A DNA stretch of 16,504 nt, taken from positions 1-16,504 of the forward strand of contig CAZGJX010000093.1 in assembly GCA_964525635.1 (NCBI GenBank), in the 5' to 3' direction. The DNA comes from an uncultured archaeon. GTDB taxonomy: Archaea > Asgardarchaeota > Lokiarchaeia > Sigyniarchaeales > SOKP01. The notes under the pieces were generated by a model. That model was not told the DNA's origin. It made no database searches and was given only the letters and a program-made list of their open reading frames with translations. Positions 2,402 to 10,112 of the stretch are shown piece by piece (position 1 is the first letter of the stretch; each line of letters begins with the position of its first letter). Made by a program: the position numbers and the translations under genes.

Positions 2402-3376
2402 TTAAATTGCTGGATAGTAAGAATATTGGTATAAATTATTTAACTCTCTATTTGATCTATATGGTATAAATCCATTTTTTATACAATTATCATAAAAATT
2501 ATAGATTTTACTTGAACTTATAGGATAATCAATAATTAAAACGGTTTTATTTACATTTAAAGCATAATTTAGATTAGAAATTCCCTCGATCCTCCAAAAA
2601 TCACTTGTTTTAGAATCATCGTAATAAAATAAATCCTCCCGACCAATTCCATCTATATAGCTTAAGTATGTAGAATTTGATAGAAGTGCATCCCCATTCT
2701 GGACAAATACAAAGAAATCTGTTCCTCCAGAACTTTTAACATAACTTGAAATATTTCCAACAAAATCAATCATCAACCAATCTGAATGAGGGATATTGTC
2801 TTCAAAATATTCATAAGCATCAATAATATCCATATAAATCCCATCAAATCCAACACTAATAATTCGATCTAAATATTCATACACTATATCTTGCCAATCT
2901 TCATTCCAATATTCTACTTTATAATTTCCTTTCCATTCTGGATTGGACATATTTAACCAATCTGGAGCGCTTGGATCTGGTATTCCATCATAATTAGCAT
3001 CCCATGCATCGTTCCAATAAAATCTATAATCTTCCGCCTCCCCTATACTTATATAAGCAAGTAAATATTTTTCATAAATTCCCGAAGACTTCATGTAGGT
3101 AATATTGGTATATGAAAATTCTCCTGTCTCATTTCCATCAGAAGAATAATCTATTATCATTAAATCATATTTAGAATTTTTAATTTCTTCTATATCGATA
3201 TCTTGAAGCCAATATGCAAAATCATCTATAGTAGTATCTCCTAACTTGGAATAAATTCGCTCTAATGGTGAAAAATCATCCTCATCCTCTAAAAAATAAA
3301 GATACAATGTAAAACTAATAATAAAACAACAAATGACAAGAAAAGCACATATTATTATTAATCTTTTTTTTACCAT
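2402..3376 (-). CDS. Membrane-anchored MJ1477/TM1410-family putative glycoside hydrolase (GH114/PelA-like endo-alpha-1,4-polygalactosaminidase-like)
   Basis: Motifs FAYWLQ, YDLMIIDYS, AYISIGEAEDYRFYW, NPEWKGNYKVEYW, GFDGIYMDIIDAYEY, VQNG, GIGREDLF; likely start is ATG 3376 (MVKKR + TM helix), not the TTG at 3427. Confidence 0.85.
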   Translation of the reverse strand: MVKKRLIIICAFLVICCFIISFTLYLYFLEDEDDFSPLERIYSKLGDTTIDDFAYWLQDIDIEEIKNSKYDLMIIDYSSDGNETGEFSYTNITYMKSSGIYEKYLLAYISIGEAEDYRFYWNDAWDANYDGIPDPSAPDWLNMSNPEWKGNYKVEYWNEDWQDIVYEYLDRIISVGFDGIYMDIIDAYEYFEDNIPHSDWLMIDFVGNISSYVKSSGGTDFFVFVQNGDALLSNSTYLSYIDGIGREDLFYYDDSKTSDFWRIEGISNLNYALNVNKTVLIIDYPISSSKIYNFYDNCIKNGFIPYRSNRELNNLYQYSYYPAI

Positions 3377-3555
3377 TATTATTATTATTATAACACGGGA
3401 GCAATTTATAATTATATTAGAACTCAAATAGAAAAAAATATATCCCTTATTATATAACTGAGATTTTTTTTGTAAATATAAAGGTTTTCTATTGTAAAGT
3501 CGAATTATTAAATTTCTTCCTATAAAACAAAAATAATAACTTTGATAACTATTGA

Positions 3556-4265: not shown

Positions 4266-5588
4266 TTACCTTAATAATTTATTATTTTTTGTATTTATAT
4301 CATCTAATTTTTTTATTTTGCTATCGAGTTCTCCTAATTCATCTATATTTTCATTATAAAATTCAATAAATTCTGTTGATAATCCTACTGGTGATTTCGC
4401 TAAATCTGTCTCTATATCCTCATATTCATATTTTTCAGCGAAAATATCTTTATATTTCTTCTCTATGTGATGGGGAAGCTTTAATTTTTTATGAGAGAGT
4501 AAGAGAGGGTGTCTTTTATCTTTAATAATTCTGTAAGGGAAGTTAGAAAAATATTTTTCAATTAACTCATAAGCAGTTTGATATTCATTCATATCTACAC
4601 ATGATTTCTTTAAAAGACGTTCAAATCTATTCTCAAAATCCTTTGAAAAACTAGTAACAGCATTTCTTAATAATTTAGAGGATTTTGAAGCAACTAATCC
4701 AATAGTTATGTATTCAGACTTATTTAGAATGATAATACCCTCATCTAATTGGATATCTACTAAGCTTCCTATATTCATAATTTCTTCACTCATAACTTGA
4801 ACTGTATTAAGAAATCCTGTGAAAGCTTTCTCATTTAAATTTGATTCTGACCAATCATGATCATATAAAGGATATCCCTCTTTATCTTTCACTATTAATC
4901 TAAAAATGGTAAAGGGCAATATATAAAGTAATTTGGGTTCTTTAATTATAGCATAAAAAACAATCGCTAAACCTAATATAAGGAAAAATTCCATACAATA
5001 TTTAAAAATAGGGGATATGAATAGTATAATTTGAAATATCAAACCTATAATAGAGCTAATCATCCCTCCAATAAGAAATACATTTGCTTCTTTTTTAATT
5101 AAATATGGAGCATTTAGCCACGTTTTTATTATCCAATAAAGCATATAAAAAGCAAATAAAGCAATAAAAGATAATACTAAGTACCGAAATAATCCCGCTA
5201 CTTTTACTACTTCATAATTAAAAGTAATTAGTTTTGTGATAGCTTCTGGTTGGGTTGCTAAATATAATGATAGAATACCAAATCCAAAGATTATATAAAG
5301 AATAAATGAATTAGCAGAATCCTTAATTGTAAAATTTATTCCTATTATCGCAAAAAAAACGGCAGGAAATATAAAAATACCTACAAGACGAGCTGATAAA
5401 TCATTATTTAGGGTGGCGAATCCATCAAAGAATTTAAATAAGCTAAAAAAAATGAATGAAATTCGTATAAAAAATACCGAACGAATAGTTTTAATTTTGG
5501 GTAAAATAAACATTAGAATTGTAAATATTAAAAAACATATTGAAGCACCAAATTCAATTAATAATTCTAATAGAAGTAATGTTTCCAT
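4266..5588 (-). CDS. Multi-pass (~7 TM) membrane protein with a C-terminal longin/roadblock-like domain
   Basis: About 7 hydrophobic segments in aa 1-225, then RLIVKDKEGYPLYDHDW...FTGFLNTVQVMSEEI...ITIGLVASK...FSKDFENRF (longin-like pattern) and an acidic tail. Confidence 0.75.
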   Translation of the reverse strand: METLLLLELLIEFGASICFLIFTILMFILPKIKTIRSVFFIRISFIFFSLFKFFDGFATLNNDLSARLVGIFIFPAVFFAIIGINFTIKDSANSFILYIIFGFGILSLYLATQPEAITKLITFNYEVVKVAGLFRYLVLSFIALFAFYMLYWIIKTWLNAPYLIKKEANVFLIGGMISSIIGLIFQIILFISPIFKYCMEFFLILGLAIVFYAIIKEPKLLYILPFTIFRLIVKDKEGYPLYDHDWSESNLNEKAFTGFLNTVQVMSEEIMNIGSLVDIQLDEGIIILNKSEYITIGLVASKSSKLLRNAVTSFSKDFENRFERLLKKSCVDMNEYQTAYELIEKYFSNFPYRIIKDKRHPLLLSHKKLKLPHHIEKKYKDIFAEKYEYEDIETDLAKSPVGLSTEFIEFYNENIDELGELDSKIKKLDDINTKNNKLLR

Positions 5589-5688
5589 TTCTTATCTCTT
5601 CATATTTTATTTATATTATTTTTTTTTATATATAAACATTAGTTATTTTAGAAATTCTTATACTTTGACAATCAATCTAAAAGAAAAC

Positions 5689-5700
5689 AAAAAAAAAAAA
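5689..5700 (-). terminator. Oligo-T (T12) archaeal-type terminator directly after the RF1-like gene
   Basis: A12 on the + strand immediately adjacent to the TAA at 5701-5703. Confidence 0.6.
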
Positions 5701-6360
5701 TTACCCTATTTCAGATTGAATATTCAATAATAGTTCCCTAAGACTTTCAAATCCACCATCATAGCAAGTATTATAAACTTTTAGAACTTTTATATTAGTT
5801 TTTTTCAAAAATCTAAGTTTAGATTTTCCACATCCGCCAACATAAAAATTAATTTTCATAGGTTCAACAACTTCAGCTATTCTTTTATAAAATTTCATTT
5901 CCATTTCTTCTCTAACTCTTTCAAATCTACGTTGAGAGAATCCTCCAGGCGAACTTTTTGAAGGAACTCCTGAAGTAAACTCCTTAATAATTTCAAAGTC
6001 AATTAAATTCGTAGATCCTATGGCTGCTCTTTTTCTCCCAATAACTAATAATCCATACATATTAGAATTATTATATAAGTCTAGCAATGGTTGTCTTAAT
6101 ATATCATTACCACAATAATATATGAATTTCTTTACCTTTTTCAATGGCTTAATGATTTCTATATTATCAGAAGCAAAAACAACTAATCCAAAATCAGTTA
6201 TTCAGGTAATAGAATTATATATCTTGTTTAAAAGAGTTAAAATATGCTTCCTACTACCCTTCTGCTTAATATTTCTTGATTCTGCTATTTCTTTTCTCAA
6301 GAAATTTCTCACAGCATTTATATCCTTATTAAAAGGAATATACAAACTAATTGATTTCAT
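5701..6360 (-). CDS. Minimal aRF1/eRF1-family release factor paralog (N+M domains, no C domain) with an in-frame TGA at codon 53; readthrough gene or recent pseudogene
   Basis: Own translation: MKSISLYIPF...KEIAESRNIKQKGSRKHI...IYNSIT*ITDFGLVVFAS...FIYYCGND...YGLLVIGRKRAAIG...SGVPSKSSPGGFSQRRFERVRE...VGGCGKSK...GGFESLRELL. Matches aRF1 ISLYIP, A(S/T)NIKS, NGLV.F, YxC, GGQS.RRF.R and GGPGxTK motifs. TGA at 6204-6202 is in the same frame as ORF 5701..6144. Confidence 0.85.
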
Positions 6361-6382
6361 ATGAGTATATAATTGTTATAAT

Positions 6383-6390
6383 TATTTAAA
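6383..6390 (-). promoter_or_regulatory. TATA box of the RF1-like gene (probably leaderless mRNA)
   Basis: TTTAAATA on the - strand, 23-30 nt upstream of ATG 6360. Confidence 0.5.
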
Positions 6391-6547
6391 CTTAGCATAA
6401 TCATCGGGGAAAATAATGGGAAAATCTATTTGAGTATTGTTATTAAAATTCCTCTTATTATTTTAAAAACAATTTAAATAAAAAAAGAAAAATATAATAT
6501 TTATTTTGCTATTTTTTAAATGGTTTTCATTCCATATAGTAGAGCTA

Positions 6548-8308
6548 TTAAAGGTCATCAATTAATCCTACATAATATTGAGCAACTAACAACGCGTCTA
6601 CGATATTAATAAAACCATCATGATTCACATCTGCAACATCAGTATAAAATGGTTGAGGATCAAGTTCAACATAATATTGAGCAATCAATAATGCATCAAT
6701 AATATCCACCAATCCGTCGTTATTTACATCTCCATTATTCCCAGTAGCAATAACACCATATACTTCAAATTCAAATAAAGAATATCCATATTCACTACTC
6801 CGCTGAATTGCATACATCCGGACATATCTGGTATTCACTTCAGAAAAACTTATATCATCAATACCTCCATCGCTACTTGTTGTTGAATAAACTGTTGTCC
6901 ATGTTGATGTATCAGAAGAAACTTGGATTTCATATACACTCCCATAGGCAGTTTCCCAATTAAGGATTACGCGATTAATATTATAAGTATTTTGTAAGTC
7001 AATATAAATCCATTGAGGATCACTGAATTCTGAAGACCATCGTGTAGTTAAAGATCCATCCACCGCATTTGATCCTTCGTAGCTTGTACTTTCGATAGAT
7101 GATACAGTAATAGGTTTATTCAGAGCAATATTAGTACCCTCAATCTCGGATAGGGTAGTTACACTCAATATATTACTTTCTGGAGAAAGATTACCCATAG
7201 CATCAAATGCCCTTATTGTATATGAATAAGTTGTTTCGAATGAAAGATTGGAAACTGTATATGAATTTGTATAAGATGTCCCAATTTCAACACCATTTTG
7301 ATAAATATTATATCCAGTTACACCAATATTGTCGCTAGAAGGATTCCAAGTTAATACTATACTAGTACTTAAGACGGAAGTAGACTGTAATCCTGTTGGT
7401 GTAGTTGGAGGCACCACATCAGGGATATCATCAAGATTATAAACTCTTACATAGTCAACAAACATAGCTGTTGGAAACATTTCATTATCAACACCCTGTT
7501 GACCACCCCAATCCCCTCCAATAGCAAGATTTAAAATGATATAGAACTCTTGATTAAAAGGCCAAGTAGTCCAGCCAGTACCTTCATTTAAAAAGCTAAA
7601 GTAGAGATTATCATCAATATACCAATCCATTCGATCAGCAGTCCATTCCAGAGCATAAACATGATAATTTGTCTGACAATCACCAACATATATAGATCCG
7701 CCCACCTGAGTTCCTGCGAGGTGATTATATGCATCACAGTGAATTGTACCATGAATCATTCCTGGATCATACCCAACATGTTCTAATATGTCGATTTCAC
7801 CACTATCCGGCCATCCACCATAAACAGAATCCCTTGGCATCATCCAAAAAGCAGGCCAGGTACCTACTCCTATAGGAAGCATAATCCTTGCTTCCATTCG
7901 CCCGTATTTCCAATCCCCTTTATACTGTGTTATAAGCCTTCCAGATGTGTATTCATATCCATTCCAAAAATCCCTCCTTGCTTCAATAGTAAGATGACCA
8001 TCCTCTACACGAGTATTCTCTAAACGCTCTCGGGTGTATTTTTGAAGTTCATTATTGACCGTATAAGGCTCCCAGTCTTCATAAGTCCACTTTGTAGGAT
8101 CTGGAAGACCATCGTAATCAAATTCATCTGACCAGACTAAAGTAGGTGGAGATGCTTTAAGATGAGTTTTTGTCCCATTTCTCTCATTATTAACATTAAT
8201 AAAAGTCTGCATTTGTAGATTAAGCAAACTCAGTACAGGGATCGTTATTAATATAACTGTAATTATTGAAAAAAATAGTAACTTGTTTATTTTTTTTCTA
8301 TTAAACAT
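6548..8308 (-). CDS. Secreted GH16 beta-1,3-glucanase/laminarinase with FN3, F5/8-type C (CBM32-like) and C-terminal dockerin domains
   Basis: Signal/TM N-terminus; LVWSDEF, WPAFWMMP, catalytic GEIDILE, NLAIGGDW; FN3 (PPTTPTGL..LTWNPSSDNIGVTGY..YTIRAFDAMGN); NIALNKP..AVDG..TRWSS..WIYIDL; duplicated Ca-loop GDVNNDGLVDIIDALL / ADVNHDGFINIVDALL. Confidence 0.92.
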   Translation of the reverse strand: MFNRKKINKLLFFSIITVILITIPVLSLLNLQMQTFINVNNERNGTKTHLKASPPTLVWSDEFDYDGLPDPTKWTYEDWEPYTVNNELQKYTRERLENTRVEDGHLTIEARRDFWNGYEYTSGRLITQYKGDWKYGRMEARIMLPIGVGTWPAFWMMPRDSVYGGWPDSGEIDILEHVGYDPGMIHGTIHCDAYNHLAGTQVGGSIYVGDCQTNYHVYALEWTADRMDWYIDDNLYFSFLNEGTGWTTWPFNQEFYIILNLAIGGDWGGQQGVDNEMFPTAMFVDYVRVYNLDDIPDVVPPTTPTGLQSTSVLSTSIVLTWNPSSDNIGVTGYNIYQNGVEIGTSYTNSYTVSNLSFETTYSYTIRAFDAMGNLSPESNILSVTTLSEIEGTNIALNKPITVSSIESTSYEGSNAVDGSLTTRWSSEFSDPQWIYIDLQNTYNINRVILNWETAYGSVYEIQVSSDTSTWTTVYSTTSSDGGIDDISFSEVNTRYVRMYAIQRSSEYGYSLFEFEVYGVIATGNNGDVNNDGLVDIIDALLIAQYYVELDPQPFYTDVADVNHDGFINIVDALLVAQYYVGLIDDL

Positions 8309-8807: not shown

Positions 8808-9000
8808 AATGAGAAATATTATTTGAACTACCATTCCCTAAAGGAAATGGATTCATAGTCCCTAAGACTCCATGAGAACCTTAGACACTACAGGATAGTT
8901 CTCTATCCCTATATCATCAATGTGATGATCATAAACATATTTATCTAATATATTCATACACCCTACAATGTCCCTATCTTGCTTATATCCACAATAGCGA
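8803..9000 (-). ncRNA. Predicted TnpB omegaRNA/reRNA; 5' boundary is a guess; guide approximately AUAAUAUUUCUCAUUUUAUU
   Basis: Established TnpB architecture: scaffold from the tnpB 3' end and right end, guide from the flank beyond TCAA. Confidence 0.5.
8823..8854 (-). other. IS605 right end: GAAT guide, hairpin, TCAA cleavage site
   Basis: 9-bp stem (one G-T pair) at 8831-8839/8842-8850; TTGA at 8823-8826 on +. Confidence 0.85.
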
Positions 9001-10112
9001 CATCGAAAGGTTCTATCGCTTGGAACAACCTTCTTCTTACAGATAGGACATGTAGTAGAGGTATGTGATTCATCAATTAGAATTAATTTGATTTCAAATT
9101 CCTCACATTTATTGCGTATCTTCTTAAGAAAGAGATGATAAGACCAGAAATTTTGTATCATCTTATTAATCTTTTTCTTATTACGATAATAAGGAGGGAT
9201 TTGGGAAGTTCTAATTCCCTTTAGATCTCCAAGAATAAGCGCAGAAACATGATAGTGCTGCAATTTTCTAAATAAATGAGCAAGAATATTATTTAGGTAA
9301 TTGATAAGCTGTTGTTTTCTTTTAAGATAGAGTCTTCTTATTCTATGGGTGCTATATCGATTATTATCTGTTTTTGCGATTGCTTGATAATATGCAATCT
9401 TTTTCGAAATCCTAAGATAGTTTTCAAAGATATGTTCTGATTCATAAAGAAGACAAACATCCTTAGAATTTTTAATATAAGCTGTTATGTATCTCTTAAT
9501 TCCCATATCAATGGAACAGAGATTATGGTCTTCAGTTTGGAATGGTGTTGGGAATACTTCTTCAACCTGATAAGCATAAAATTTCTTACTATAGGCAAAA
9601 TATTTAATTTCCATAGTTTTCTTACCACCTTTCCATCGCCTTATTCCATTATATTTTATTTTAAGCAATCCTTTAATTCTATTTGCTTTTTTTAGGTCTT
9701 TTGAGCTTGAGATATATATATAGTTAGCATCAATTCGATAGCAATCGTTCCTACAAATCAGTAATTTAGGAAGTGTTTGATTGGTCTTGTAATTCTTATA
9801 ATAGGAGGGAATTGAAACTTTATGTTCTATTTTCTCAGAAGTAAGGGAGTTCCAAAAAGATTGCCATGAAGAATGTAATTTCTTTAGAATTTGTTGAGAA
9901 TAGGCACTTCCTAAGGAGGAATAAAGTTCATGAGTTTTTAAATCTTCACATAATTGAAAATAGGAGGGAATTTTCCTATCTTTTTTAAATAATGCCCGTC
10001 GTTTTTGATAATTACCCACGTTCCAAAGAGCACTGCTCCTTACTAACATCTCTTTTAGAATTTTTCCTTGTTGTTTTGTTGGTTTCAGTTCTAAGATATT
10101 AGTCCGAAGCAT
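8862..10112 (-). CDS. tnpB: RNA-guided endonuclease TnpB
   Basis: N-terminal LRTNILELKPT..LWN; RuvC-I SIDMG; RuvC-II ILGDL with downstream IDESHTS; Zn finger CPIC/CRYC; RuvC-III DRDIVGCMNI. Confidence 0.95.
   Translation of the reverse strand: MLRTNILELKPTKQQGKILKEMLVRSSALWNVGNYQKRRALFKKDRKIPSYFQLCEDLKTHELYSSLGSAYSQQILKKLHSSWQSFWNSLTSEKIEHKVSIPSYYKNYKTNQTLPKLLICRNDCYRIDANYIYISSSKDLKKANRIKGLLKIKYNGIRRWKGGKKTMEIKYFAYSKKFYAYQVEEVFPTPFQTEDHNLCSIDMGIKRYITAYIKNSKDVCLLYESEHIFENYLRISKKIAYYQAIAKTDNNRYSTHRIRRLYLKRKQQLINYLNNILAHLFRKLQHYHVSALILGDLKGIRTSQIPPYYRNKKKINKMIQNFWSYHLFLKKIRNKCEEFEIKLILIDESHTSTTCPICKKKVVPSDRTFRCRYCGYKQDRDIVGCMNILDKYVYDHHIDDIGIENYPVVSKVLMES

What the first reader, a model, noticed from the sequence alone, without database searches (positions are those of the whole stretch)
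5701..6360. Minimal, chimeric-looking release factor: NIKQ, GGFSQ, no GTS loop, no C domain
Seen: 219 aa versus about 410-440 aa for aRF1/eRF1. It begins after the GTS-loop position, NIKS is NIKQ, YxCxxxF is YYCGNDI, and GGQ is GGF followed by SQ (5946-5932). It ends right after the M domain, lacking the aEF1A/eRF3-binding C domain. Known: a GG-aromatic-SQ loop with the later Gln as the key residue is typical of prokaryotic VLRF1 (Vms1/ANKZF1-like) and baeRF1 clades, and VLRF1s lack the codon-reading N domain. Inference: a GTPase-independent ribosome-rescue factor with altered codon specificity, an aRF1/VLRF1 intermediate, or a catalytically dead competitor of aRF1.
Basis: partly seen in the sequence, partly recalled or inferred. 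Interest (0 to 1): 0.75.

Follow-up and report, generated by a model that had tools for sequence, protein, structure and literature searches.

The report
Truncated release-factor copy with conserved in-frame UGA
This is a shortened, fast-evolving copy of the archaeal protein-release factor aRF1, and it led to an apparently undescribed Lokiarchaeial family of aRF1 copies that all keep one stop codon (UGA) inside the gene, so ribosomes probably must read through it, as in bacterial RF2 and Mimivirus release-factor genes.

Summary
But the "219-aa" frame is not open. It has an in-frame TGA at 6204-6202, confirmed in independent assemblies.

The gene is not an aRF1/VLRF1 intermediate. It nests inside the aRF1 clade of its own archaeal order. 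There it is the long-branched sister (support 96/90) of a family I found through relatives. All eight distinct full-length members examined (360-366 codons, 63-86% identical) carry exactly one in-frame stop, TGA at codon 75, in the same N-domain linker. Both flanks are under purifying selection (dN/dS 0.28 and 0.16). No Loki-type SECIS lies within 300 nt downstream. A family-specific 10-bp mRNA hairpin lies upstream of the TGA.

Seven of the eight keep GGQ, and all eight keep the C domain. GGF and the truncations are therefore peculiar to this copy.

The frame of the window copy has nevertheless been kept: 1 stop against about 12.6 expected under neutral decay. It also has a consensus TATA box and a T12 terminator at its present ends.

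Best reading: the UGA is an inherited, programmed read-through gate. This copy is a derived N+M remnant that is either neofunctionalised or decaying.

The scan had already noted GG[W]SQ aRF1s on other DNA.

The parts
6383..6390 (-). Consensus archaeal TATA box TTTAAATA, 22 nt before the ATG, which suggests a leaderless mRNA.
   Evidence: Sequence. Genome-wide, TTTAWATA shows a modest peak 21-23 nt before ATGs of long ORFs. This is inference, with no transcript-start data.
6205..6360 (-). N segment, 52 codons from ATG 6360: strand beta1, helix, NIKQ loop (6273-6262), helix alpha3 of the aRF1 N domain.
   Evidence: About 40% identical to both family and canonical aRF1s, the same as the downstream segment.
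6202..6204 (-). In-frame TGA (codon 53) in the alpha3-beta2 linker. It lies within 2 alignment columns of the TGA-75 conserved in all eight related family members examined.
5704..6201 (-). C segment, 166 codons: rest of the N domain with a shortened hairpin, YYCGNDI (6120-6100), and the M domain with GGFSQ (5946-5932). It ends at the M/C boundary.
   Evidence: AlphaFold2 mean pLDDT 94.5. Best fold matches are aRF1 4af1 and accommodated eRF1 5lzu.
5701..5703 (-). TAA stop codon.
5689..5700 (-). T12 run directly after the stop codon, which looks like an archaeal oligo-T terminator.
   Evidence: A run of T>=12 within 25 nt of the stop occurs in 0.9% of long ORFs.
6204..6314 (-). Two predicted mRNA hairpins in the N segment. 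The 3' arm of the second ends at the U of the UGA.
   Evidence: MFE -26 kcal/mol, z -2.85, 1 of 200 shuffles folds as well. These hairpins are not homologous to the family's own hairpin.

Best explanation
**What it is.** The gene is a species-specific, truncated and fast-evolving offshoot of a Lokiarchaeial aRF1-paralogue family, which I call the 'UGA-75 family'. I found no description of this family in the literature I could search. Every examined member carries one conserved in-frame UGA in the linker between helix alpha3 and strand beta2 of the codon-reading N domain.

**The UGA.** In the window it is therefore inherited, not a fresh mutation. It most likely acts as a read-through gate. Ribosomes usually terminate there, by action of the canonical aRF1, and make a short N-terminal peptide. 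Only ribosomes that read through make the whole protein. Output would then rise when termination capacity falls. This is the logic of the bacterial RF2 frameshift and of the Mimivirus R726 read-through.

**This copy.** It has additionally lost helix alpha1, the whole aEF1A-binding C domain, the Ser of NIKS, the Phe of YxCxxxF and the Gln of GGQ. If it is made, it is an N+M protein that must reach the A site without a GTPase. It would release peptides poorly, or only through the Gln two residues later (GGxSQ).

**Shown:** family membership, conservation of the UGA, selection on both flanks, and loss of the motifs.

**Inferred:** read-through as the decoding mode, the feedback logic, and any present activity of this copy.
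For: **Family and UGA**
- A second aRF1 copy in genome G226 has TGA in the same linker.
- A search with it found 15 clusters, all called as 218-258-aa pieces. No full-length relative with a sense codon at that position was found.
- DNA of 8 distinct members shows 360-366 codons, a single in-frame stop (TGA at codon 75), and the context AAR-ATY-TGA-A.
- Members are 63-86% identical to each other. Median dN/dS is 0.28 upstream of the TGA and 0.16 downstream.
- The first possible restart codon lies beyond the conserved beta2 strand.

**Decoding**
- No Loki-type SECIS lies within 300 nt 3' of any member.
- The same genome's VhuD and CUU selenoprotein genes have one 15-24 nt after their stop.
- The TGA aligns with a variable residue, never Cys.

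**mRNA features**
- A 10-bp hairpin, CCAGAACAUU/AAUGUUCUGG, lies 38 nt upstream of the UGA. It has 10 of 10 pairs in most members.
- Canonical genes encoding the same peptide average 7.5 pairs there. One compensatory change is seen per helix.
- dS upstream of the UGA is about half that downstream.

**Placement of the window copy**
- It is sister to the family with support 96/90, and 94 with G226 alone.
- It shares the YDGG insertion, an aromatic residue after GG, and loss of Pro in GGPG.

**The frame has been kept**
- Neutral decay to the same identity gives 12.6 stops on average (minimum 5 in 400 simulations) against 1 observed.
- Nucleotide identity by codon position is 0.55, 0.64 and 0.44.
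- A TATA box and a T12 run sit at the present gene ends.
- A 151-nt identical contig is present in a metatranscriptome run.
Against: - No protein or transcript data show read-through.
- UGA-A is an ordinary terminator context in this genome: 36% of TGA stops are followed by A.
- The window TGA is offset by 2 alignment columns from the family TGA, next to a 3-4-residue deletion, so homology of the codon is probable rather than proven.
- The window copy shares only 2 of 10 family-specific invariant residues and lacks the family hairpin, with 7 of 10 pairs.
- Its end branch is 1.32 against 0.07-0.25 for family members, so constraint is very relaxed.
- It is absent from 3 same-genus genomes.
- Apart from G226's second copy, no copy was found in 400 Asgard species genomes.
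- Nonsense-interrupted paralogues are common in this genome.
- Both G000 and G226 have tRNA-Sec and SepSecS, so selenocysteine is not excluded.
Confidence: 0.5

Rival explanations
1. The window copy is a dead relic of the UGA-75 family. After losing its ends and catalytic motifs it no longer does anything and is drifting towards loss.
For: - It is a singleton in its genus.
- Its branch is 5-15 times longer than those of family members.
- It has lost alpha1, the C domain, and the key residues of NIKS, YxCxxxF and GGQ, and it lacks the family hairpin.
- It keeps 28 of 44 strongly conserved aRF1 positions.
- The genome holds many nonsense-broken paralogues.
- Another genome (G040) holds an aRF1 fragment.
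Against: - It has no stop other than the inherited UGA and no frameshift, against 12.6 stops expected.
- Third codon positions have diverged most.
- A consensus TATA box and a T12 terminator sit exactly at the truncated ends.
- The fold is predicted with high confidence.
- An identical contig is present in an RNA library.
Confidence: 0.3
2. The UGA encodes selenocysteine, and the family are selenoproteins that use a non-standard or distant SECIS.
For: - tRNA-Sec and SepSecS are present in G000 and G226.
- The UGA is strictly conserved.
- There is conserved mRNA structure upstream.
- An earlier scan note reports a core-less SECIS in this genome (untested here).
Against: - No lokiSECIS pattern lies in any 3' region, although the genome's known selenoprotein genes have one 15-24 nt after the stop.
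- Covariance-model hits are at noise level, though the model itself is weak.
- The site is a surface linker where homologues have N, K or E and never Cys.
- No redox motif is present.
- Release factors are not named in the main text of either selenoproteome paper I searched: no occurrence in PMC11227280, and none among the selenoprotein families that the text I read of PMC4989117 lists.
Confidence: 0.08
3. The window copy is an independent recent duplicate of the canonical aRF1 that acquired a chance nonsense mutation. Its resemblance to the UGA-75 family is coincidence or long-branch artefact.
For: - It is as similar to canonical aRF1s (about 40%) as to the family.
- The AU test does not reject a clade with its own genus's aRF1, p 0.27, on a tree built before the family was known.
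- Its TGA is offset by 2 alignment columns from the family's.
Against: - Sister placement to the family has support 96/90.
- It shares the YDGG insertion and other derived states.
- A second independent TGA falling within 2 codons of the family's site has a chance of roughly 1-2%.
- The open frame is kept over a saturated divergence.
Confidence: 0.07
4. One reading: a member of, or intermediate to, the VLRF1 or baeRF1 rescue-factor clades.
For: - It has a GGxSQ motif and an N+M architecture without the Pelota-like C domain, as described for aVLRF-1.
- It hits Pfam acVLRF1 (29.6 bits) and baeRF_family10 (35.3 bits), both above threshold.
Against: - It nests inside the order-specific aRF1 clade.
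- The canonical aRF1 scores higher on the same two Pfam models, 43.9 and 42 bits.
- There is no N-terminal coiled coil.
- The catalytic loop has the same length as in aRF1.
Confidence: 0.03
5. A split gene: the 52-aa peptide and a downstream product (147 aa from TTG 6144, or 119 aa from the ATG before YGLLV) are made separately.
For: Gene callers predict exactly these pieces.
Against: - The conserved beta2 strand lies between the TGA and the first restart codon, both here and in the family.
- No ribosome-binding motif precedes the internal starts.
- Both segments stay in one frame in all 9 genes.
Confidence: 0.02

Closest known systems
Canonical archaeal aRF1 (TIGR03676; structures 4af1, 3agk). 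The genome's own copy is at G000:C41:25356-26579.
   Same: - The N and M domain folds match.
- It is about 40% identical.
- It arose from the aRF1 of its own order.
- The Arg-rich helix after the catalytic loop is kept.
   Different: - No alpha1 helix or GTS position.
- No C domain, so no aEF1A or ABCE1 contacts through it.
- NIKQ, YYCGNDI and GGF replace the three hallmark motifs.
- It has an in-frame UGA.
- It scores 131 bits against a cut-off of 234.7.
Mimivirus R726 / Megavirus mg280 class-I release factor (Jeudy et al. 2012, PMC3521657)
   Same: An eRF1/aRF1-type gene whose 5' part holds a conserved in-frame UGA. That UGA must be read through and is interpreted as autoregulation.
   Different: - The viral genes also need a frameshift, and their context is the leaky UGA-C. 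Here it is UGA-A with no frameshift.
- The hosts are eukaryotic, whereas these genes sit in cellular archaeal genomes beside a canonical aRF1.
- Read-through was shown experimentally for the virus, not here.
Bacterial prfB (RF2) programmed +1 frameshift at an in-frame UGA
   Same: A release-factor gene gated by a stop codon that the release factor itself reads, giving negative feedback (established knowledge, summarised in PMC3521657).
   Different: - The protein fold is unrelated.
- RF2 uses a frameshift rather than same-frame read-through.
- The stimulatory element there is an upstream Shine-Dalgarno-like site.
aVLRF-1 and glutamine-less baeRF-1 families, including the hibernation factor Balon (Burroughs and Aravind 2019, PMC6514570; PDB 8rd8)
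   Same: - The N+M architecture without the C domain, and GGxSQ, match aVLRF-1.
- Loss of the GGQ Gln matches the baeRF-1 families proposed to occupy the A site without catalysis.
- Balon appears among the fold matches.
   Different: - Different clades: this gene is a recent derivative of Lokiarchaeial aRF1.
- No coiled-coil extension.
- No hibernation-factor neighbour.
- The loop length is unchanged.

Membership tests
aRF1/eRF1 class-I release factor (TIGR03676 equivalog) | Score above the curated cut-off across all three domains | tested here: not met
   131.3 bits against a cut-off of 234.7. The match covers model positions 23-255 of 403 only.
aRF1/eRF1 class-I release factor (TIGR03676 equivalog) | Catalytic GGQ, NIKS loop and YxCxxxF motif | tested here: not met
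   It has GGF, NIKQ and YYCGNDI. It keeps 28 of 44 columns that are at least 90% conserved.
aRF1/eRF1 class-I release factor (TIGR03676 equivalog) | C domain (eRF1_3) that binds aEF1A/eRF3 | tested here: not met
   No eRF1_3 hit. Only 112 nt lie between the stop and the next gene.
aRF1/eRF1 class-I release factor (TIGR03676 equivalog) | Descent from the aRF1 clade; N and M folds | tested here: met
   Trees. Pfam eRF1_2 at 51.6 bits. Fold matches to 4af1 and 5lzu.
UGA-75 aRF1-paralogue family (defined here) | Single in-frame UGA in the alpha3-beta2 linker of the N domain | tested here: met
   The window TGA is in the same linker, 2 alignment columns from TGA-75, next to a deletion.
UGA-75 aRF1-paralogue family (defined here) | Clade membership and shared derived characters (YDGG insertion, aromatic after GG, GGPG without Pro, FIY[WY]C) | tested here: met
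   Sister with support 96/90. The derived characters are seen, although it shares only 2 of 10 strictly invariant family-specific residues.
UGA-75 aRF1-paralogue family (defined here) | Full three-domain length (360-366 codons) with GGQ (7 of 8 members) | tested here: not met
   219 codons, no C domain, GGF.
UGA-75 aRF1-paralogue family (defined here) | 10-bp mRNA hairpin over the NIKS codons | tested here: not met
   7 of 10 pairs at the homologous place, the same as canonical genes. Other hairpins are predicted instead.
aVLRF-1 (Burroughs and Aravind 2019) | GGxSQ loop; no Pelota-type C domain | tested here: met
   GGFSQ, no C domain. But canonical local aRF1s also read GGQSQ.
aVLRF-1 (Burroughs and Aravind 2019) | Long N-terminal coiled-coil extension; longer catalytic loop; separate VLRF-1 clade | tested here: not met
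   The protein starts inside the N domain, and its loop length equals that of aRF1. It nests in the order's aRF1 clade. No bona fide aVLRF-1 sequence was in the tree.
baeRF-1 (bacterial aeRF-1 clade) | Specific match to a baeRF family model and bacterial-clade placement | tested here: not met
   It scores 35.3 bits on baeRF_family10, but the canonical aRF1 scores 42 on the same model. Its placement is archaeal.
Selenoprotein gene of Lokiarchaeia | lokiSECIS (AUGA, 9-bp stem, 11-nt A-rich loop, GA) shortly after the stop; Cys in homologues | tested here: not met
   None on the contig or 3' of any family member. Positive controls were found in the same genome. Homologues have N, K or E at the site.
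Autoregulatory recoding in release-factor genes (RF2, Mimivirus R726) | Demonstrated decoding through the internal stop, and dependence on release-factor level | not testable with these tools
   Only comparative evidence is available: a conserved UGA and selection on both sides.

The most novel reading that the evidence does not exclude
Lokiarchaeia possess a second, read-through-gated release factor. The conserved UGA-75, perhaps aided by the upstream hairpin, would sense termination capacity or Sec/UGA decoding capacity and set the level of an aRF1 paralogue. This would be the first such recoding circuit in a cellular archaeon. In this genome a derivative has become a GTPase-independent N+M protein with GGF. 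It would compete with aRF1 at stop codons, turning negative feedback into a switch.
Probability: 0.3. Interest if true: 0.85.

Novelty: new variant of a known kind. Interest (0 to 1): 0.7.

Why it matters
Stop-codon-gated synthesis of a release factor is a textbook feedback loop in bacteria (RF2). It has been seen once for an eRF1-type gene, in giant viruses. A conserved in-frame UGA in an aRF1 paralogue of Asgard archaea would extend this logic to cellular archaea, in the lineage closest to eukaryotes and one that also recodes UGA as selenocysteine.

It would give a concrete system for asking how archaea balance termination, read-through and Sec insertion. It also shows that gene callers systematically split these genes into 74-aa and roughly 220-260-aa pieces. 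The window copy adds a natural experiment: what remains selectable when a release factor loses its GTPase-binding domain and its catalytic Gln.

Tried and rejected
**Searches that found no relatives or no signal**
- Rfam scan of 5000-6600: nothing relevant.
- Near-length protein search with the window protein: only itself.
- HMMER search of 1.84 billion representatives: nothing closer than 44%.
- Viral contigs and phage records: no relative.
- Synteny in same-genus genomes was uninformative, because the flanking 440-aa gene belongs to a family with 9-12 copies per genome.
- Pattern scan for GG[FYW]SQRRFE in 135 family genomes: only G000 and G226 are real hits. The G010 and G244 hits are chance.
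- First metagenome pattern scan: 0 hits. Second: 99 hits, none a close relative.

**SECIS and RNA structure**
- The SECIS covariance model from 3 local elements is weak. The held-out VhuD SECIS scores only 13.6 bits, so its negative result carries little weight.
- No convincing conserved structure lies downstream of the UGA: -6.6 kcal/mol, with one small stem showing a possible compensatory change.

**Read and contig data**
- RNA and 2025-sediment contigs cover only part of the gene (5903-6053 and 5877-6167). They show neither the UGA nor transcript ends.

**Rejected ideas**
- TGA as a general sense codon: code 4 does not lengthen real genes.
- A recent copy of the genome's own aRF1: third codon positions are saturated.
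- A link to the virus-borne GGFSQ aRF1 family (P0004, P0155-P0158). It shares GGFSQ and a Trp near the site, but it is a distant clade.

Full report
**1. The observation**

On the minus strand an ATG at 6360 opens a frame that reads through NIKQ (6273-6262), YYCGNDI (6120-6100) and GGFSQ (5946-5932) to a TAA at 5703-5701.

The frame is not open, however. Codon 53 is TGA (6204-6202). Under the standard code the stretch yields two ORFs of 52 and 147 aa. The organism uses the standard code:
- Reading TGA as sense does not lengthen the real genes of the window.
- 317 of 2385 long ORFs in the genome end in TGA.

The TGA is not an error. Four other assemblies are 100% identical over it. Contigs of two further salt-marsh runs span it unchanged.

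Read through, the 219 residues match the aRF1 model TIGR03676 at positions 23-255 of 403 (E 4e-38). The score is 131 bits against a cut-off of 234.7. Pfam finds eRF1_2 clearly, eRF1_1 weakly, and no eRF1_3.

**2. The genome**

The window is a whole 16.5-kb contig of a 4.45-Mb, 26.8% G+C archaeal genome that earlier notes of this scan call Lokiarchaeon-type. The genome has:
- a canonical 424-aa aRF1 scoring 476 bits, and a Pelota-like gene;
- tRNA-Sec and SepSecS;
- selenoprotein genes with Loki-type SECIS elements 15-24 nt after their stop codons.

**3. My first reading, later revised**

At first the gene looked like a lone, recently broken copy:
- In 60 relatives, including three of the same genus, only the canonical aRF1 matched.
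- Nothing closer than 44% identity existed among 1.84 billion representative proteins.

Two results argued against simple decay:
- Neutral evolution from the aRF1 sequence down to the observed 39% identity gave 12.6 in-frame stops on average, with a minimum of 5 in 400 runs. One stop is observed.
- Nucleotide identity is 0.55, 0.64 and 0.44 at codon positions 1, 2 and 3.

A consensus TATA box (6390-6383) lies 22 nt before the ATG, within a modest genome-wide peak. A T12 run follows the stop directly, a feature of 0.9% of long ORFs.

**4. The family**

A survey of 400 Asgard genomes turned up one other extra copy, in G226, a different genus of the same family. It also has one in-frame TGA, and GGY in place of GGQ.

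Searching public proteins with its downstream part gave 15 clusters at 56-100% identity. All were called as 218-258-aa pieces. No full-length form was found.

I fetched the DNA of seven more distinct members. All eight genes share these features:
- They have 360-366 codons.
- They have exactly one in-frame stop, TGA at codon 75.
- The context is constant: ..GQLAKI-UGA-T[IFL]P[KE]NGL.., that is AAR ATY TGA A.
- The site falls in the linker between helix alpha3 and strand beta2 of the N domain.

The members are 63-86% identical to one another. Median dN/dS is 0.28 for codons 2-74 and 0.16 for codons 76-300, so both sides are protein-coding.

The conserved beta2 strand lies between the TGA and the first possible restart codon. 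This argues for translation through the UGA rather than two separate products.

Seven members keep GGQSQ. Five of the eight keep NIKS, with the last residue varying in the others (NIKL, NIKN, NIKD). All eight keep YxCxxxF. All keep a C domain, which is shorter than in canonical aRF1.

Gene neighbourhoods differ between members. They include GatDE with ribosomal protein L2 and TFIIB, a GH3 gene, an Arf-like GTPase and a WD40 protein. G226 also has a canonical aRF1.

**5. How the UGA is decoded**

*Selenocysteine is unlikely.*
- No Loki-type SECIS occurs within 300 nt downstream of any member, nor anywhere on the window contig under the pattern that finds the genome's known elements.
- Homologues have N, K or E at the site, never Cys.
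- Release factors do not occur in the main text of the Asgard selenoproteome paper, and the passages I read of the Lokiarchaeota paper list none.

*It is not excluded.* Both genomes have the Sec machinery, and my covariance model is weak.

*There is a family-specific mRNA feature.* A 10-bp hairpin, CCAGAACAUU/AAUGUUCUGG, lies over the NIKS codons, 38 nt upstream of the UGA.
- All 10 positions pair in seven of the eight members (all Watson-Crick in six, two G-U pairs in L192); G226 has 7 of 10.
- In 30 canonical genes that encode the same peptide, a mean of 7.5 positions pair.
- This hairpin and a second small one each show one compensatory change. 96% of cells pair, against 45-49% in slid controls.
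- Synonymous divergence upstream of the UGA is about half that downstream.

*Other points.*
- The UGA-A context is an ordinary terminator context in this genome, so read-through is probably inefficient.
- No convincing structure follows the UGA.

**6. Where the window copy belongs**

In a maximum-likelihood tree of the N+M region it is sister to the eight-member family with support 96/90. The two together are sister to the canonical aRF1s of the same taxonomic family, inside the order's aRF1 clade (98/94).

It shares several derived characters with the family:
- a one-residue insertion, YDGG against Y-GG;
- an aromatic residue after that GG;
- loss of Pro in GGPG;
- FIY[WY]C.

Its TGA lies in the same linker, two alignment columns from TGA-75 and next to a 3-4-residue deletion. 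An independent nonsense mutation landing this close would have a chance of about 1-2%.

The copy is nevertheless very derived:
- Its end branch is 1.32, against 0.07-0.25 for family members.
- It shares only 2 of 10 family-specific invariant residues.
- It lacks the family hairpin. Its own N segment is predicted to be structured instead (z -2.85).
- It is about 40% identical to family and canonical proteins alike, in both segments.

GGF, NIKQ, YYCGNDI, the missing alpha1 and the missing C domain are peculiar to it.

**7. What it does**

*Shown:*
- It descends from aRF1.
- Its N and M folds are predicted with confidence (pLDDT 94.5), although the alignment used was built from aRF1s.
- Its best structural matches are aRF1 4af1 and accommodated eRF1.
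- It cannot bind aEF1A through a C domain.
- All three hallmark motifs are altered.

*Inferred:*
- It can be made only by read-through of the inherited UGA, and so at a low, termination-dependent level.
- It would enter the A site without a GTPase.
- It would be non-catalytic, or weakly catalytic through the Gln two residues on.

GG[F/W/Y/M]SQ recurs in many archaeal aRF1-like proteins. The later Gln is kept in 13 of 16 non-self cases. This fits the GGxSQ motif of aVLRF-1 and acVLRF-1 in Burroughs and Aravind 2019.

Whether the copy still works or is a relic cannot be settled here. I put a working copy at about 0.5 and a relic at 0.3.

**8. Comparison with what is known**

The closest functional parallels are the RF2 frameshift and the Mimivirus/Megavirus release-factor gene. 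In the latter a conserved UGA in the 5' part is read through (PMC3521657).

The closest architectural parallels are aVLRF-1 (N+M, GGxSQ) and the glutamine-less baeRF-1 proteins, including Balon. The gene is not a member of those clades:
- It lacks the coiled coil.
- Its catalytic loop is not lengthened.
- Its Pfam hits to acVLRF1 and baeRF_family10 are weaker than those of the canonical aRF1.

I found no paper describing an archaeal aRF1 gene with an in-frame UGA. The library is not exhaustive.

**9. Verdict**

The 'chimeric intermediate' reading does not hold. The find is the UGA-75 family and this copy's place in it.

Noticed in passing
L186:1338-2423, L188:1537-2637, L189:2692-3777, L191:495-1580, L192:913-1998, L193:84-1169, L194:531-1616, L056:2357-3439(-): Eight distinct Lokiarchaeial aRF1-paralogue genes each have a single conserved in-frame TGA at codon 75. 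Public gene calls split every one into a 74-aa piece and a 218-258-aa piece.
   Followed up: yes
P0004, P0155-P0158; L058, L061: A separate roughly 350-aa aRF1-like family with GGFSQ sits on virus-like contigs from soda-lake sediments. The contigs carry many tiny same-strand ORFs plus ThyX, thymidylate kinase, RNA ligase, a T4 endonuclease V-like gene and an MT-A70 methylase.
   Followed up: partly
P0017, P0035, P0036, P0050, P0074, P0118, P0159, P0162 and others: GGQ is replaced by GG[F/W/M/S/Y] in many otherwise complete archaeal aRF1s from scattered clades, including ones named aRF-1 in Aenigmatarchaeota. A Gln usually follows two residues later.
   Followed up: partly
whole genome G000: ORF pairs joined in frame by a single stop are about twice as frequent for TGA (68 per 317 terminal TGAs) as for TAA or TAG (about 10%). 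In multi-copy families both TGA and TAG often align with Trp, which fits frequent TGG-to-stop pseudogenes besides the selenoproteins.
   Followed up: partly
window 4266-5588 (-): A 440-aa protein with a multi-pass membrane N-terminal half has no Pfam match. It belongs to a family with 9-12 copies per genome in this genus, and one copy in G001 carries an in-frame TGA.
   Followed up: partly
window 6548-8308 (-) and 2402-3427 (-): The window encodes a GH16-FN3-F5/8 type C-dockerin protein and a GH114 protein. Dockerin-type C-terminal modules recur dozens of times in the genus.
   Followed up: no
window 8862-10112 (-): A TnpB / IS605 OrfB-type gene (Cas12f-like TNB domain) lies 2.5 kb from the release-factor copy.
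   Followed up: no
L055:2704-3303 (G040:C353): Another genome of the order holds a 199-aa ORF that is the back half of an aRF1, from the GGQ loop to the C terminus. It sits beside a canonical copy elsewhere in that genome.
   Followed up: partly
G000:C37 near 14201 (+): A gene ending ..DPGC-U-U.. has two adjacent in-frame TGAs, with a Loki-type SECIS 24 nt after its stop.
   Followed up: no
search: 17 of 134 genomes of the family, some 97-99% complete, gave no aRF1 match with this query. This is unexplained. The first-look filter may have missed them, or their genes may be interrupted.
   Followed up: no
G000: a contig with a tRNA array at 19630-20308 (contig not identified) and C16:37961-38034: An A+T-rich array of tRNA-Cys, Gln, Ala and Ala genes sits together on one contig. 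The ARAGORN listing did not say which contig it is; it may be C54, which also carries the bona fide tRNA-Trp at 25926-25998. A doubtful second tRNA-Trp(CCA) lies on C16. These may be tRNAs of a mobile element.
   Followed up: no
L186, L189, L194, 30-45 nt after the stop: A conserved motif CGAAATCAGAC lies downstream of three family genes. Its meaning is unknown.
   Followed up: no
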